A stretch of 64,000 nt of DNA from a virus. The stretch lies in the IMG/VR virus record IMGVR_UViG_3300037418_001469; one strand, given 5' to 3'. Numbering within the stretch: position 1 is the stretch's first letter; the number at the start of each line of letters is the position of its first letter. A model generated the notes under the pieces. It made no database searches. It saw nothing but the letters and a program-made list of their open reading frames with translations, and was not told the origin of the DNA. A program made the position numbers and the translations under genes. Shown piece by piece: positions 18,140 to 26,726 of this stretch.

Positions 18140-18345
18140 ATGTATCACTCTCCTTTAAAAAGATTGGCTATTAAGAAGACCTAATAGCCAAAACCAAGAT
18201 AGGGGAATGTAAGGGGAAGTTTTTATAGAATATCTATAATTATCATACTTATGCATTTGCTAGTTTTTATGCTGTTACCTTGACATTGTAGGAAGTTATT
18301 GGTAAACTGTGTTATAGGAACTAATAAATTGGAGGTTTGATAGAT

Positions 18346-19176
18346 ATGGAAAAATATTTAAAATACTTTTTAAACTATATTCGAACTGAAAAAAACTTAT
18401 CCGAGAACACAATTATTGGCTACAAAAAAGACCTAGAGCAATATCTTGATTCTTGCAATATCAAAGTATTGGAAGACCTAAATAAACACACGATAAGAGA
18501 TTTCCTCGCTAAGATAAATGACCTAGCACCAACGACTAGAAGACGTAAGCTAGCATCTATCAGAGGATTTTTTGGATTCTTATTTGATGAAGAAATTATT
18601 AATAAGAATGAATCGTTAAGCATTAAAAATGCTAAGATTGATAAAAAGTTGCCAGTGATTATGTCTGTAAATGAAACAGCTACCGTAATCGACTCAGCAT
18701 GTAGCAAACAAGATAAAGCAATTCTAGAAACGCTATATGGAACTGGTGCTCGTATATCTGAATTAGTTGGAATCCAAATATCTGATATTGACTTTGATGC
18801 TAGAACAGTTAGGTTGTTCGGAAAAGGAAACAAAGAGAGAATTGTACCGATTAACAATGCATCATTAATCGCCATAAAAGAACATCTGGATTCTAGAGGT
18901 TTCAATAGTCCTTATGTATTCGGTAGTAGAGTTACACCTAATCATCCAATGACAGCTAGAAATGCTCGTGAAAGAGTTTATAAGAGTGGTGGCAAGGAAG
19001 TTCACCCACACATGTTTAGACATAGCTATGCTACTCACTTGCATGCTAACGGTGCTAGTATTATGGATATCAAGGAAATGTTAGGTCATGCTGACATTAG
19101 CACAACACAAATATATACTCATGTAGCAAATGAACAAATGACTAGAACATATCGTCATTCTCACCCAAGGGGTTAA
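18346..19176 (+). CDS. XerC/D-like tyrosine recombinase
   Basis: LYGTGARISEL, GKGNKER, HMFRHSYATH, LGH, TQIY. Confidence 0.92.
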   Translation: MEKYLKYFLNYIRTEKNLSENTIIGYKKDLEQYLDSCNIKVLEDLNKHTIRDFLAKINDLAPTTRRRKLASIRGFFGFLFDEEIINKNESLSIKNAKIDKKLPVIMSVNETATVIDSACSKQDKAILETLYGTGARISELVGIQISDIDFDARTVRLFGKGNKERIVPINNASLIAIKEHLDSRGFNSPYVFGSRVTPNHPMTARNARERVYKSGGKEVHPHMFRHSYATHLHANGASIMDIKEMLGHADISTTQIYTHVANEQMTRTYRHSHPRG

Positions 19177-19795
19177 GACTCTCTCTGAGTTTCTTGACTC
19201 CTCTTTTTGTTGCCCTAGAAACATTAGCTTGGTTAATATTTAATTCTTCTGCAATCTCTTCTTGTTTCATATCTGATAGATAATACATATTAATCAAATC
19301 TTTTTGATGTATTGTTAAACTGTCCAATCCTTGCTCAATAATAATTTTATCTATAACCGAGTTTTCATCAAAATCTTCTGAACCTAGAACACTCAATAGC
19401 TCATAGTCACTAATAATCCCAATTCCACTTTTCTGTGAATTAGCAGATATCCCATCAATACTAATAGTTCTTCTATCTTCTTTAAAGTAGTTCATTTCTT
19501 TTTTATAGTAGTTAAATATTCCGTTTCTCGATTTAGATGTTATATGTCTAATTGCAGAATCATCTAGTCTTTCATCATAGTCAAGCATAGCTTCGATTAA
19601 TTTTAAATCAATTACTTGACATACATCATCAAATTCCACACCTTTCCCTGCGAATTTTTTTGCTAATGACTTTCTAAAAGGCTCAAACATATTTAAAATT
19701 TCCATCATAGCATCTTCTCTTTTGAACTCATTTTCGTCTGCTTGAGCAACCTTAATTAAGTTTTTTACTACTACTTCAATCTCTTGTTTTGTCAT
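19142..19795 (-). CDS. RNA polymerase sigma-70 family factor
   Basis: Region 2-like N-terminus; region 4 HTH MKQEEIAEELNINQANVSR. Confidence 0.8.
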   Translation of the reverse strand: MTKQEIEVVVKNLIKVAQADENEFKREDAMMEILNMFEPFRKSLAKKFAGKGVEFDDVCQVIDLKLIEAMLDYDERLDDSAIRHITSKSRNGIFNYYKKEMNYFKEDRRTISIDGISANSQKSGIGIISDYELLSVLGSEDFDENSVIDKIIIEQGLDSLTIHQKDLINMYYLSDMKQEEIAEELNINQANVSRATKRGVKKLRESLNPLGENDDMF

Positions 19796-22712: not shown

Positions 22713-23219
22713 ATGGATTTTAAGACACCAAAGGTGGTATGTGGAGTATGTAACGGAAAAGGTGGATTTAGAAAACTAAAAGATAATTTCCTTGATACAA
22801 ATTGGATTGATTGTGCATACTGTGAAGGATATGGTTTTGTTGATGACACTACCACCGAAGAAGAAGTAACAACACACCTTACATATAACCGATATAAAAC
22901 TAAGTTAGAATCATCATTCAGTATACTAGGAGAATTAAAGGTAGTCACATCAGAATCAGAAAAAACAGATATGTTTGTAAAAATTCTTCCATACAACAGA
23001 AAAAACTGGACTACCTTAATTAAGCACATATTAAAATTCTCGCATCATCACGATAAAATTAAAGTACTTCCTAAGCAAGCGTTTTATCATACAGATGATG
23101 AAACCCACTATATTGATTGGGAATTGCACATTACAATGCATACCCTAGAAGATTTAGATGGACTATTAGAACTAGTTCGCATGTATAATGACACATTAGC
23201 AGTAGGTGGTGGCATATGA
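22713..23219 (+). CDS. Hypothetical protein with CxxCxGxG Zn finger
   Basis: CGVCNGKG/CAYCEGYG. Confidence 0.6.
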   Translation: MDFKTPKVVCGVCNGKGGFRKLKDNFLDTNWIDCAYCEGYGFVDDTTTEEEVTTHLTYNRYKTKLESSFSILGELKVVTSESEKTDMFVKILPYNRKNWTTLIKHILKFSHHHDKIKVLPKQAFYHTDDETHYIDWELHITMHTLEDLDGLLELVRMYNDTLAVGGGI

Positions 23220-23986
23220 AATGTCTAGGATTAACATTCTTAGGAACTGGCAGTGCCTTCTCAAAGAAATTCGGAAATAACAGTGCGGTGGTTACGATAG
23301 GAGATAAGAATTTACTTATTGATTGCGGAAGAACAACACCAAATGATTTAGATAAATCTCAATTCTCATGGTCAGACATTGATGCTATTTTCATCACTCA
23401 TATTCACGGAGACCATGTATTTGGATTGGAAGAGGCAGGATTCATGGGTAGATTCGTTCTCAATAAAAAACCGCATATTATTTTCCCACATAAGAAGATT
23501 AAGCAAGACCTGTGGGAGAAAGTACTCAAAGGAACAATGATGCAAGGAGATTTAGACAGGAACATGACATTCGATGATTATTTTACATATGAAATTGTCG
23601 ATGAGAGAGAGCAATATTTCGAATTTAACGATGTAATGTTTTCTGTATTTTCAACACAACATGTCAAAAATAAAAAATCATATGGCTTAATTATTGGAGA
23701 GTATGATTATATAGTATATACATCAGACACACTTTTTGATAGTGAAATGGTAATTGCTTTCTACCAAGGTGGAGCACAAAAGATATTTCACGACTGTCAA
23801 ATGACAGATTACAAAGGAAAAGTACACGCATCACTAGATGAATTAGCTACATTACCAGAAGAAATTCGAGAGAAGACAGTTATTATGCACTACGGAGATG
23901 ACTTAGATGGCAATTTTACAAGAATTAAAGAATTAAAATTAGGAATAGCGTTGCCAAATATAACTCAAAAATTCGTAGTCAAATAG
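23216..23986 (+). CDS. apyc1: MBL-fold cyclic nucleotide phosphodiesterase, anti-Pycsar Apyc1-like
   Basis: GTGSAFSKK..NNSA, LIDCG, THIHGDH..GLEE, SDT, FHDCQ, HASLDEL, MHYGD match Apyc1 as I recall it. Confidence 0.75.
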   Translation: MKCLGLTFLGTGSAFSKKFGNNSAVVTIGDKNLLIDCGRTTPNDLDKSQFSWSDIDAIFITHIHGDHVFGLEEAGFMGRFVLNKKPHIIFPHKKIKQDLWEKVLKGTMMQGDLDRNMTFDDYFTYEIVDEREQYFEFNDVMFSVFSTQHVKNKKSYGLIIGEYDYIVYTSDTLFDSEMVIAFYQGGAQKIFHDCQMTDYKGKVHASLDELATLPEEIREKTVIMHYGDDLDGNFTRIKELKLGIALPNITQKFVVK

Positions 23987-24962: not shown

Positions 24963-25140
24963 AGTTGTCCTTGACTTTTTGTTATAATTCATATATAATA
25001 TAAGTACTTGGAGAGTTTGATTCTGACTTTTATTGGTTGGTGGTGGTTTTTATAGCCTCCACCTCCTTGTCAGTTTGTCCTTGACTTTTTTTTACTAGGG
25101 AGTTATAATATAAATATAATTCAAAGAGGAGATGGTCAGC

Positions 25141-25269
25141 ATGAAAAAAATAGACAAAGACCTAATGGCTAAAATGTACGTAGAGATGGGAGAAATCAAT
25201 GTCTCCATTTCCGAAGGAATTACAGAAGAAATCGTATGGCATAAGGAGGTAGAAAATAATGGCAACTGA
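25141..25269 (+). CDS. 42-aa MazE/EndoAI-like mini-antitoxin (not in ORF track)
   Basis: MKKIDKDLMAKMYVEMGEINVSISEG...; own promoter at 25081 and GAGGAG RBS. Confidence 0.6.
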   Translation: MKKIDKDLMAKMYVEMGEINVSISEGITEEIVWHKEVENNGN

Positions 25270-25522
25270 AAGAGAAGCAGTATTATCACTGTTGCTAGTG
25301 CAGTGTATCAAGCGACTTAGCAAGAATGGCAAACAAAAGGTACATATCACAAATGCAGAATTAAATAGATTAGTAGAAGGAAACTTTGAAGTTGATTTTA
25401 GCGAAAGCAATAGCGATAGATTTATTTTAAAATTAGTTAAAGGCGAACCGCTAGTTGGTCTCGAAGAAATTGTAGTTGAAGAAAATGTAGAGCTACCAAA
25501 AGAACTATTAGAAGAACAATAG
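25259..25522 (+). CDS. Hypothetical protein
   Basis: AAGGAGG RBS. Confidence 0.6.
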   Translation: MATEREAVLSLLLVQCIKRLSKNGKQKVHITNAELNRLVEGNFEVDFSESNSDRFILKLVKGEPLVGLEEIVVEENVELPKELLEEQ

Positions 25523-25564
25523 TTTATCCTTGACTTTTTATTATAATTCATTTATAATATAATT

Positions 25565-25900
25565 ACCGAGATAAGCGTAACGCTTAATCAATTAGGAAAC
25601 TGTCAGATGGAAGATAGTAGGGTGGCAGAGAGTAGCAGGTGAATGGGGTTTATTCCTGCCGAATAATTATGAGAGGCTAGCATCTCATAGGAAGTGCATA
25701 TTGGAGTCGGTAGAGGGATGCACAGGGACAACATGGGTTAAAGTGTCTCGCCAAATAATGTTCTACTCTCAAAACTACCAAAATAGCGAATGTCATGGAG
25801 AAACAGAGTGCCTGTAAACAAACTATGATAGCTATGAAAGTGAATGACTGGTTCGGAACATCAAGGAAGGGCAAGGGGCAAAGCTAACGTCCCCCTTCTA
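25565..25900 (+). ncRNA. Unknown ~335-nt structured RNA
   Basis: Own promoter 25530-25558, GC-elevated, multiple helices, no credible ORF. Confidence 0.6.
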
Positions 25901-26126
25901 ACGTAGAAATATCGTCATATTTGACGACATAGAAGGGAATGAGGAATATGAGAAAGTGTGAAAATTGCGGAAACGATAGAGAAGAGTATTTGAATCACTA
26001 CTGCAAGACGTGTTTAGATAAAATGACAGAAAATAACAGTGTAGTAATTCGAAAAGAATTGTGATACAAAATTTATCCTTGACTTTTTAAAGGTCATATG
26101 ATATAATATATTTATAAGATAATGAG

Positions 26127-26309
26127 GTGATTGTTATAAAAGAAGAAATTAGATATGCTTTAGAAAATTTAAAAGATGAAGATAAAATCAAGTCTTTCTT
26201 AGAAAGACAGTCACACGATAGCTTATATTATATATTTACAATGTTAGAATATACAGATGTTGAAACATCTAATCTATGGACAAACACATATAATAGTTTA
26301 TTTAAATAA
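26127..26309 (+). CDS. Hypothetical protein
   Basis: Downstream of promoter 26079; GAGG RBS. Confidence 0.45.
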   Translation: MIVIKEEIRYALENLKDEDKIKSFLERQSHDSLYYIFTMLEYTDVETSNLWTNTYNSLFK

Positions 26310-26314
26310 TATCA

Positions 26315-26381
26315 GAGACACTCACAGCAATCCTACATACAAACAATTCAATTGGTGAATATTAAATGTATATAGTGTCTC
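26315..26381 (+). ncRNA. ACAGCAA-stem RNA unit 1 (Y-RNA-like)
   Basis: GAGACACT-cACAGCAA...AGTGTCTC. Confidence 0.7.
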
Positions 26382-26392
26382 GTTAAACGTAA

Positions 26393-26485
26393 AAGACCCA
26401 AACAGCAAAACAATATAGTGCGATTGGTTCGCAATTTTTCTACTACGAAAATCTAAGAGGTTCAAATCCTCCTATAATGGGTCTT
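26393..26485 (+). ncRNA. ACAGCAA-stem RNA unit 2 with D/anticodon/T-arm-like cargo
   Basis: AAGACCCA-aACAGCAA...GAGG TTCAAAT CCTC...TGGGTCTT. Confidence 0.7.
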
Positions 26486-26505
26486 GTCAAACGTATCTAA
26501 ACGTT

Positions 26506-26610
26506 GGCACATACAGCAATCCACTAACCTATACAGGAAAGTTCTCTACATTATGTAGACTTTAAAGATTGCTCGTGAAGAGCACGAAAAAATTTATCAT
26601 AGCTAGTGCC
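26506..26610 (+). ncRNA. ACAGCAA-stem RNA unit 3
   Basis: GGCAC-atACAGCAA...GTGCC with three internal hairpins. Confidence 0.65.
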
Positions 26611-26669
26611 TAGTAAACTAGAAGTCTATCTCCCCCAAGAGTCCACGTCGACGGGGAGATAAAACGTCC

Positions 26670-26726
26670 AGACATTAACAGCAACACAAAACAAATTTTC
26701 TTTGGATGAAAAATTATAATATGTCT
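26670..26726 (+). ncRNA. ACAGCAA-stem RNA unit 4, abutting the RBS of the TROVE-like gene
   Basis: AGACAT-taACAGCAA...ATGTCT. Confidence 0.65.

What the first reader, a model, noticed from the sequence alone, without database searches (positions are those of the whole stretch)
25141..25269. Unannotated 42-aa mimic of the MazE/EndoAI toxin-neutralising helix
Seen: an ORF with its own promoter and RBS encoding KDLMAKMYVEMGEINVSISEG. From memory, the C-terminal half of Bacillus antitoxin EndoAI (MazE) reads RDLMRRGYMEMAKINLNISSE and is the part that binds MazF/EndoA. The RHH DNA-binding half is missing here, and no toxin gene is adjacent. Inference: a phage anti-defence peptide that blocks the host mRNA interferase. 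It sits at the head of the RNA-rich locus.
Basis: partly seen in the sequence, partly recalled or inferred. Interest (0 to 1): 0.78.

Follow-up and report, generated by a model that had tools for sequence, protein, structure and literature searches.

The report
Phage MazE-like antitoxin mimic peptide
An uncultured soil phage encodes a 42-residue protein that copies the toxin-binding helix of the Bacillus MazE antitoxin, so it most likely switches off the host MazF RNA-cutting toxin, as phage proteins AimX and YosL are already known to do.

Summary
ORF 25141-25269 (+) has a sigma-A-type promoter and a GAGGAG ribosome site. It encodes a 42-aa protein whose residues 5-25 match MazE/EndoAI residues 54-74 (10 of 21 identical).

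Alone, the match is borderline (E=0.44 against the PDB). A profile of seven phage homologues hits EndoAI (4ME7_E) at E=1.2e-5 and phage phi3T AimX (8ANV_C) at E=5e-3. In 1.8 billion proteins it also finds true RHH-MazE antitoxins, one next to a PemK/MazF gene.

The four residues that AimX and MazE use for recognition (M, Y, E, M) are M9, Y13, E15 and M16 here. They are invariant among the close relatives and nearly so across the family. A co-fold with a B. subtilis EndoA dimer passed its controls (0.81 against 0.55), but 4ME7 is solved, so the pass may come from memory.

AimX and YosL are published MazE-like anti-MazF antitoxins, and some Bacillus phage records already say "antitoxin endoai".

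Three things differ here:
- There is no arbitrium context.
- The gene sits in a conserved cassette with anti-Pycsar Apyc1.
- It always overlaps an 87-aa gene of a new family with no fold match.

This scan also noted the same stretch when reading another window (e1-5727660).

The parts
25081..25109 (+). Sigma-A-type promoter of the peptide / 87-aa operon (TTGACT, 17 nt, TATAAT)
   Evidence: 11 of 12 consensus positions match. It is part of the repeated word TTGTCCTTGACTTTTT, 12 copies against 1.6 expected. It is conserved in relative L012.
25126..25131 (+). Shine-Dalgarno GAGGAG, 9 nt before the ATG at 25141
   Evidence: Read directly from the sequence. The same GAGGAG-ATGGTnGGT-ATG arrangement occurs in L012.
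25141..25269 (+). 42-aa MazE-C-terminal-like (AimX/YosL-type) small protein
   Evidence: ORF. Homologues. Profile hits to EndoAI 4ME7_E (E=1.2e-5) and AimX 8ANV_C (E=5e-3). Co-fold with the EndoA dimer 0.81 against best control 0.55.
25153..25215 (+). Core helix motif, residues 5-25 (DKDLMAKMYVEMGEINVSISE), holding M9, Y13, E15, M16, I19, N20
   Evidence: Aligned to EndoAI 54-74. M9, Y13, E15, M16, I19 and N20 are invariant across AimX, YosL, FADO gp40 and RHH-MazEs. The predicted contacts run through residues 9-17.
25243..25249 (+). AAGGAGG ribosome site of the downstream gene, embedded in the peptide's C-terminal codons (K-E-V)
   Evidence: Sequence. It explains the conserved 'KEV/GVE' in the otherwise variable tail.
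25259..25522 (+). 87-aa partner gene, overlapping the peptide ORF by 11 nt; new family of unknown function
   Evidence: 35 homologues. In all 14 stretches that carry it (the window and 13 fetched loci, several near-identical to one another) it lies about 150 nt after the helix motif. AF2 mean pLDDT is 77.5, with the core (about residues 10-60) averaging above 90. No Pfam, PDB sequence or fold match.
23216..23986 (+). Apyc1 (anti-Pycsar) gene in the same conserved cassette; context only
   Evidence: Pfam PF23023, E=7.9e-39. Syntenic in all relatives examined.

Best explanation
The ORF encodes a stand-alone copy of the MazF-binding helix of the Bacillota antitoxin MazE (EndoAI). It lacks the RHH dimerisation and DNA-binding domain. 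It is transcribed from a strong sigma-A-type phage promoter of a kind repeated across this gene block. The peptide is inferred to insert its amphipathic helix (M9, Y13, E15, M16, I19, N20) into the groove at the interface of the host MazF (EndoA) dimer. That would occlude the RNA-binding and catalytic channel, so the endoribonuclease cannot cut phage transcripts when MazE is lost or titrated during infection. On this reading it is an orphan antitoxin used as counter-defence, the same mechanism shown for phi3T AimX and SPbeta YosL. Shown here: the ORF, its expression signals, family-level homology to MazE, AimX and YosL, conservation of the contact residues, and the synteny. Inferred: binding to the host MazF, neutralisation, early timing, and any role of the co-translated 87-aa protein.
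For: - Profile of seven phage homologues against the PDB: EndoAI 4ME7_E residues 54-80 at E=1.2e-5, and AimX 8ANV_C at E=5e-3.
- The same profile against 1.84 billion representatives: 66 clusters at E<=1e-3. They include RHH_1-bearing MazE proteins (P0063, P0069, P0070). P0069 sits directly upstream of a 116-aa PemK_toxin gene.
- P0029, another hit, lies just after AimR and an AimP-like gene and carries a precomputed MazE_antitoxin_C tag.
- PMC10769878 reports that AimX and YosL bind and inactivate B. subtilis MazF through the helix shared with MazE, with AimX M14, Y18, E20 and M21 as key residues. These align with M9, Y13, E15 and M16, which are invariant in A2 and A7 and invariant or at least 90% conserved in A4.
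- The conserved Tyr is essential in YosL, and MazEF blocks phage lacking aimX and yosL by more than 6 logs.
- Co-fold with two copies of ENDOA_BACSU: ipSAE 0.81 (runs 0.81, 0.81, 0.85) against a best control of 0.55. That mark was reached by 58 of 80 solved complexes and 2 of 110 mismatched pairs. The runs agree in at least 81% of contacts and partner pLDDT is at least 64. Contacts run through peptide residues 9-17 to both protomers.
- UACAUA, the conserved Bacillota MazF site, is not avoided in the window: 45 and 38 copies against about 40 expected.
- The gene sits in a conserved cassette with anti-Pycsar Apyc1.
- All cultured-phage tblastn matches to this motif family below E=5 are from Bacillus, Geobacillus or Listeria phages.
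Against: - The host is unknown. No genome is held for the window, so a cognate MazF has not been shown.
- The co-fold used a stand-in MazF, and a like complex (4ME7) is solved, so the pass may reflect memory of that structure.
- The window peptide has Met at position 12, where about 90% of relatives and MazE have Gly.
- The post-helix segment is shorter and more divergent than in MazE.
- phi3T AimX also binds a phage protein, phi3T_93, so MazF need not be the only or main target.
- The obligate pairing with the 87-aa gene is not explained by a simple one-protein inhibitor.
Confidence: 0.68

Rival explanations
1. The helix peptide mainly acts on a phage-encoded partner, most plausibly the co-translated 87-aa protein. 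This would parallel AimX binding the phi3T_93 dimer groove, or AimX-type antirepressors. The pair would then be a regulatory switch, for example of the lysis-lysogeny decision or of timing, rather than a direct anti-MazF inhibitor.
For: The two genes overlap by 11 nt and co-occur in all 14 stretches that carry the 87-aa gene. AimX uses the same helix to bind phi3T_93. Other AimX proteins are antirepressors. An integrase-like tyrosine recombinase lies at 18337-19176, so a temperate lifestyle is possible.
Against: The 87-aa family shows no relation to phi3T_93 (hhalign probability 0.1%). It has no HTH or repressor signature. The same helix peptide occurs without this partner in FADO-like phages and in arbitrium modules. 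No AimR was found among the large ORFs of the window. Conservation is concentrated on the MazF-contact residues.
Confidence: 0.15
2. The peptide and the 87-aa protein form a phage-borne type II toxin-antitoxin pair, with the short antitoxin first and the overlapping toxin second. The pair would serve addiction or superinfection exclusion rather than counter-defence.
For: The gene order and the 11-nt overlap are typical of type II TA operons. The pairing is strictly conserved. The upstream gene is homologous to an antitoxin.
Against: The 87-aa protein has no PemK/MazF or other toxin-family signal: Pfam, PHROGs and NCBIfam at E<=1 and a PDB profile search. Its confident model core is two helices and two short strands, not an SH3-like MazF barrel. 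It has an acidic tail, which is more usual for inhibitors. The fold searches found nothing, which leaves the fold open.
Confidence: 0.1
3. The ORF is a chance open frame in an intergenic leader, and the likeness to MazE is a coincidence.
For: The single-sequence match to EndoAI is only E=0.44. No RNA data are available.
Against: The protein is conserved down to 29-50% identity across dozens of clusters while the DNA diverges. Its promoter and RBS are conserved. The profile E-values are significant. The motif occurs exactly once in six-frame translation of the 64-kb window.
Confidence: 0.02

Closest known systems
AimX of Bacillus phage phi3T (phi3T_91, 51 aa; PDB 8ANV chain C)
   Same: A small stand-alone phage protein made of little more than the MazE-like helix. 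It shares M, Y, E, M, I and N at the recognition positions. It is published to bind MazF, displace MazE and block MazF toxicity. The profile hits it at E=5e-3.
   Different: AimX lies directly after aimR-aimP and is controlled by arbitrium signalling. The window gene has its own constitutive-looking promoter, no AimR nearby, a different genomic cassette, and an overlapping 87-aa partner. It is 39% identical to AimX.
YosL of SPbeta-like phages, and the 'antitoxin endoai' genes of FADO/Nate-type Bacillus phages
   Same: Phage-encoded MazE-like helix used against host MazF. YosL is expressed in the lytic programme and is needed to escape MazEF defence. FADO gp40 is a 49-aa stand-alone form, 50% identical to the window peptide.
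   Different: YosL (117 aa) and Nate gp113 (133 aa) carry an extra N-terminal domain and sit in replication modules, next to primase, a RecJ-like exonuclease or nrd genes. In the window's own clade a 127-aa fused variant occupies the same slot in one relative (L015).
MazE / EndoAI antitoxin of Bacillus subtilis (PDB 4ME7 chain E)
   Same: Residues 54-80, the MazF-binding helix and the following segment, align with peptide residues 5-31 of the profile. For the window peptide itself, 10 of 21 residues are identical over 5-25.
   Different: MazE has an N-terminal RHH domain for dimerisation and operator binding, and it is encoded just upstream of mazF. The peptide has neither.
Other orphan-antitoxin counter-defences (e.g. 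T4-like phage antitoxin-like enzymes against DarTG1, PMC11825919)
   Same: The same strategy: the phage carries an antitoxin-like gene without the toxin to neutralise a host TA defence (title and abstract).
   Different: A different TA family and a different mechanism, enzymatic reversal rather than steric blocking of a ribonuclease.

Membership tests
MazE/EndoAI C-terminal toxin-binding segment (Pfam MazE_antitoxin_C, PF27083) | Significant sequence similarity to the MazF-binding helix of RHH-type MazE | tested here: met
   Profile A2 against the PDB: 4ME7_E residues 54-80, E=1.2e-5. RHH_1-bearing MazE proteins at E of 3e-4 to 4e-4 in 1.84 billion proteins. One of them lies beside a PemK_toxin gene.
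MazE/EndoAI C-terminal toxin-binding segment (Pfam MazE_antitoxin_C, PF27083) | Hit to the curated Pfam model itself | not testable with these tools
   PF27083 appears only as a precomputed tag on P0029. The local Pfam copy gives no hit even for AimX, YosL or P0029, so the model seems to be missing from it.
MazE/EndoAI C-terminal toxin-binding segment (Pfam MazE_antitoxin_C, PF27083) | Conserved recognition residues (AimX M14, Y18, E20, M21, equivalent to MazE M58, Y62, E64, M65) | tested here: met
   M9, Y13, E15 and M16 are invariant in A2 and A7. In A4, Y13 and M16 are invariant and M9 and E15 are at least 90% conserved. The residue roles come from PMC10769878.
Full-length type II antitoxin MazE (mazEF module) | N-terminal RHH dimerisation and DNA-binding domain | tested here: not met
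   The protein is 42 aa and starts 4 residues before the helix motif. It has no RHH hit.
Full-length type II antitoxin MazE (mazEF module) | Cognate PemK/MazF toxin gene immediately downstream | tested here: not met
   The downstream 87-aa gene has no PemK signal: Pfam at E<=1 and a PDB profile search. Its model is not a beta-barrel. The fold searches were empty, which by itself is inconclusive.
phi3T-type AimX (arbitrium effector) | Small stand-alone MazE-like helix protein | tested here: met
   (8ANV_C, E=5e-3). Alignment.
phi3T-type AimX (arbitrium effector) | Located downstream of aimR-aimP and regulated by AimR | tested here: not met
   The upstream genes are Apyc1, a 3D-domain protein and a 67-aa ORF. 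No AimR was found among the nine largest ORFs of the window. The gene has its own consensus promoter. The rest of the roughly 174-kb genome was not seen.
phi3T-type AimX (arbitrium effector) | Binds MazF and neutralises its toxicity | not testable with these tools
   Only a model exists: co-fold 0.81 against best control 0.55, at least 81% contact agreement, partner pLDDT at least 64. A like complex is solved, so this shows likeness and not binding.
YosL-type phage antitoxin | Unrelated N-terminal domain fused to the C-terminal MazE-like helix | tested here: not met
   The window protein has no N-terminal domain. A 127-aa fused form fills the same slot in relative L015.

The most novel reading that the evidence does not exclude
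The helix peptide and the invariably overlapping 87-aa protein form a two-part counter-defence module. The 87-aa protein belongs to a new family with no sequence or fold match. The helix plugs MazF. The partner might capture host MazE or a protease adaptor, neutralise a second toxin, or hold and release the helix in the way phi3T_93 does. The slot is modular: it holds a free 42-48-aa helix in most relatives and a 127-aa fusion in one.
Probability: 0.22. Interest if true: 0.6.

Novelty: new member of a known kind. Interest (0 to 1): 0.38.

Why it matters
It extends the AimX/YosL strategy, in which a phage copy of the MazE helix disarms host MazF, from SPbeta-like temperate phages to an unrelated lineage of large uncultured soil phages. 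The profile found 66 clusters at 50% identity. Most are unnamed 41-65-aa proteins, and four of the six cultured-phage records matched do not annotate the gene at all. This suggests that MazEF, a core-genome system of Bacillus, is a common obstacle for phages of Bacillota. The motif ([IV]DKxxMAKGY[VI]EMGxINLxIS) is a simple marker for annotating such genes. The strictly coupled 87-aa protein of unknown fold is a concrete new target for anti-defence studies.

Tried and rejected
- Local Pfam, NCBIfam and PHROGs scans of the peptides gave nothing curated. PHROGs returned only weak hits to two unnamed families, phrog_21769 and phrog_35990, at E of 1e-3 to 1e-1, always on their C-terminal part.
- Megablast of the locus against cultured phages found no match.
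- No genome is held for the window, so an in-genome MazF search was impossible.
- The first AF2 model of the 87-aa protein, from 8 sequences, was unusable (pLDDT 51).
- With 31 sequences the model was good. Foldseek against the PDB then found nothing at E<=0.001, and VIA-align wide found nothing above Z 2.3.
- hhalign of the 87-aa family against YosL-like N-domains and phi3T_93 showed no relation.
- The ESM Atlas gave no usable hit for the 87-aa protein.
- tblastn of the 87-aa protein against cultured phages found no match.
- The sequencing-run search listed no RNA holder, so expression could not be examined.
- A codon-position comparison with L012 (5, 6 and 11 differences at positions 1, 2 and 3; 5 synonymous and 8 non-synonymous codons) was too small to be informative. 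The case for coding rests on family conservation instead.
- A first motif regex was mistyped and corrected.

Full report
**1. What is there**

The window is part of a roughly 174-kb uncultured phage. Its portal protein is only about 22% identical to those of Bacillus phages. The stretch occurs in soil and rhizosphere metagenomes, and no host genome is held.

ORF 25141-25269 (+) encodes 42 aa. A TTGACT-17-TATAAT promoter lies at 25081-25109. It is one copy of a phage promoter word present 12 times in the window against 1.6 expected, almost always on the + strand of this gene block. GAGGAG sits 9 nt before the ATG. The in-frame ATG at 25132 abuts the RBS, and divergent relatives start at MKK/MKN, so 42 aa is the likely product.

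The ORF's last 11 nt overlap the start of an 87-aa gene (25259-25522). That gene's AAGGAGG site lies inside the peptide's codons for K-E-V. This explains the conservation of that part of the otherwise variable tail.

**2. Is the MazE likeness real?**

- The single peptide finds only one PDB chain at E<=10. It is EndoAI (4ME7_E), residues 54-74, with 10 of 21 residues identical, but at E=0.44.
- Relatives settle the matter. Close homologues exist. Tracing homologues of the downstream gene recovered more divergent syntenic peptides that look even more like MazE, for example GRGYIEMGEINLKIEAEF.
- A profile of seven such peptides hits EndoAI residues 54-80 at E=1.2e-5 and the phi3T arbitrium effector AimX (8ANV_C) at E=5e-3.
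- Against 1.84 billion representatives the profile finds 66 clusters at E<=1e-3. Most are 41-65-aa stand-alone proteins. Some are 89-95-aa proteins with an RHH_1 domain, and one of these lies directly upstream of a 116-aa PemK_toxin gene. That one is a genuine MazE.
- Another hit, P0029, lies just after AimR and an AimP-like gene and carries a precomputed MazE_antitoxin_C tag.
- The family motif is [IV]DKxxMAKGY[VI]EMGxINLxIS.E.

**3. Precedent and mechanism**

Zamora-Caballero et al. (PMC10769878) and Guler et al. (bioRxiv 10.1101/2023.04.27.537455) showed the following:
- phi3T AimX (51 aa) and YosL share the C-terminal MazE helix.
- Both bind B. subtilis MazF and neutralise its toxicity.
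- MazEF blocks phage lacking both by more than 6 logs.
- The key residues are AimX M14, Y18, E20 and M21, and the conserved Tyr is essential in YosL.

These residues align with M9, Y13, E15 and M16 of the window peptide. Together with I19 and N20 they are invariant across the window peptide, AimX, YosL, FADO gp40 and RHH-type MazEs.

A co-fold of the peptide, using its 31-row alignment, with two copies of ENDOA_BACSU scored 0.81 against a best control of 0.55. That mark was reached by 58 of 80 solved complexes and 2 of 110 mismatched pairs. Contact agreement was at least 81% and partner pLDDT at least 64. Peptide residues 9-17 bridge both protomers. Because 4ME7 is solved, this pass shows likeness to the known complex and does not show binding.

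The conserved Bacillota MazF site UACAUA occurs at chance frequency in the window: 45 and 38 copies against about 40 expected, with 24 sense-strand sites in the 22-kb early and middle block. If the host's MazF has this specificity, the phage's transcripts carry the site at the frequency expected by chance.

**4. Context**

The cassette is conserved in every relative examined. Its order is: S1-domain gene, dTMP-kinase-like gene, metallophosphatase, 168-aa gene, Apyc1 (anti-Pycsar, E=7.9e-39), 3D-domain protein, 66-aa gene, helix peptide, 80-96-aa partner. Relatives then carry a nucleoside deoxyribosyltransferase-like gene, which this window lacks.

- All 14 stretches that carry the 87-aa gene (the window plus 13 fetched loci, several near-identical to one another) have the helix motif about 150 nt upstream. 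The motif occurs only once in six-frame translation of the window.
- In one relative, binned in a Psychrobacillus MAG, the slot holds a 127-aa protein with the helix at its C-terminus, a YosL-like architecture.
- The helix gene also occurs without this partner. Examples are FADO gp40 (49 aa, 'hypothetical'), Nate gp113 ('antitoxin endoai'), YosL and AimX.
- No AimR was found among the large ORFs of the window.
- A tyrosine-recombinase/integrase-like gene lies at 18337-19176, so the phage's lifestyle is open.

**5. The 87-aa partner**

The family has 35 members, all from metagenomes or MAGs. There is no Pfam, PHROGs or NCBIfam assignment and no PDB sequence match.

With 31 sequences AF2 gives a mean pLDDT of 77.5, with the core (about residues 10-60) averaging above 90. 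The model is a long N-terminal helix, a second helix and two short strands, followed by a disordered acidic tail. Neither Foldseek nor VIA-align finds a related fold. The family is unrelated to phi3T_93 or to YosL-like N-domains by hhalign. Its role is unexplained. It is the main reason that rival readings, a phage-internal partner or a TA pair, keep some weight.

**6. Verdict**

[quoted passage not shown] This is therefore a new member of a known kind. Its modest extra interest comes from the non-arbitrium setting, the anti-defence cassette and the obligate new partner gene.

Noticed in passing
window 25259-25522: The 87-aa gene is always translationally coupled to the helix peptide. It belongs to a new family of 35 members with the strongly conserved motifs RRLSKNGK and EVDFSES..RFILK. 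Its AF2 core is confident but has no fold or sequence match.
   Followed up: partly
window 24971-25075: A second copy of the consensus promoter (24971-24999) drives only about 70 nt with no ORF before the next promoter. The stretch contains GGAGAGTTTGATTCTGAC and CCTCCACCTCCTT, which resemble the 16S rRNA 5' end and the anti-SD tail. It lies directly upstream of the putative anti-MazF gene.
   Followed up: no
window 18337-19176 (+): A 279-aa ORF matches the integrase family phrog_1 at E=5.7e-59, next to a sigma-factor-like gene (19142-19795, -). The phage may be temperate, or it may use a Xer-like recombinase.
   Followed up: no
window 23216-23986 (+): An Apyc1 anti-Pycsar cyclic-nucleotide phosphodiesterase (PF23023, E=7.9e-39) lies in the same conserved cassette. 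It marks the region as an anti-defence island.
   Followed up: partly
L015:5625-6008: In a Psychrobacillus-MAG contig the same slot holds a 127-aa protein with an unrelated N-terminal domain fused to the MazE-like helix. It still overlaps the partner gene. This also hints at the host range (Bacillales).
   Followed up: partly
L011:4077-4280: The gene after AimR encodes a signal peptide followed by three tandem ADPGDIIQPK units. It may be an AimP precursor carrying several copies of the mature peptide.
   Followed up: no
L001:5308-5442 (= window 25195-25329): Database protein P0005 is the peptide's C-terminal part read through its TGA stop as Trp. This is a gene-calling artefact of an alternative code, not a real variant.
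   Followed up: yes
window 25523-26700 compared with L002, L004, L006, L012 and L016: Relatives carry a nucleoside 2-deoxyribosyltransferase-like gene (PF05014) right after the partner gene. In the window this position instead holds further consensus promoters (25530, 26079) and non-coding sequence leading to the Ro60-like gene and the tRNA array (28.5-31.3 kb).
   Followed up: no
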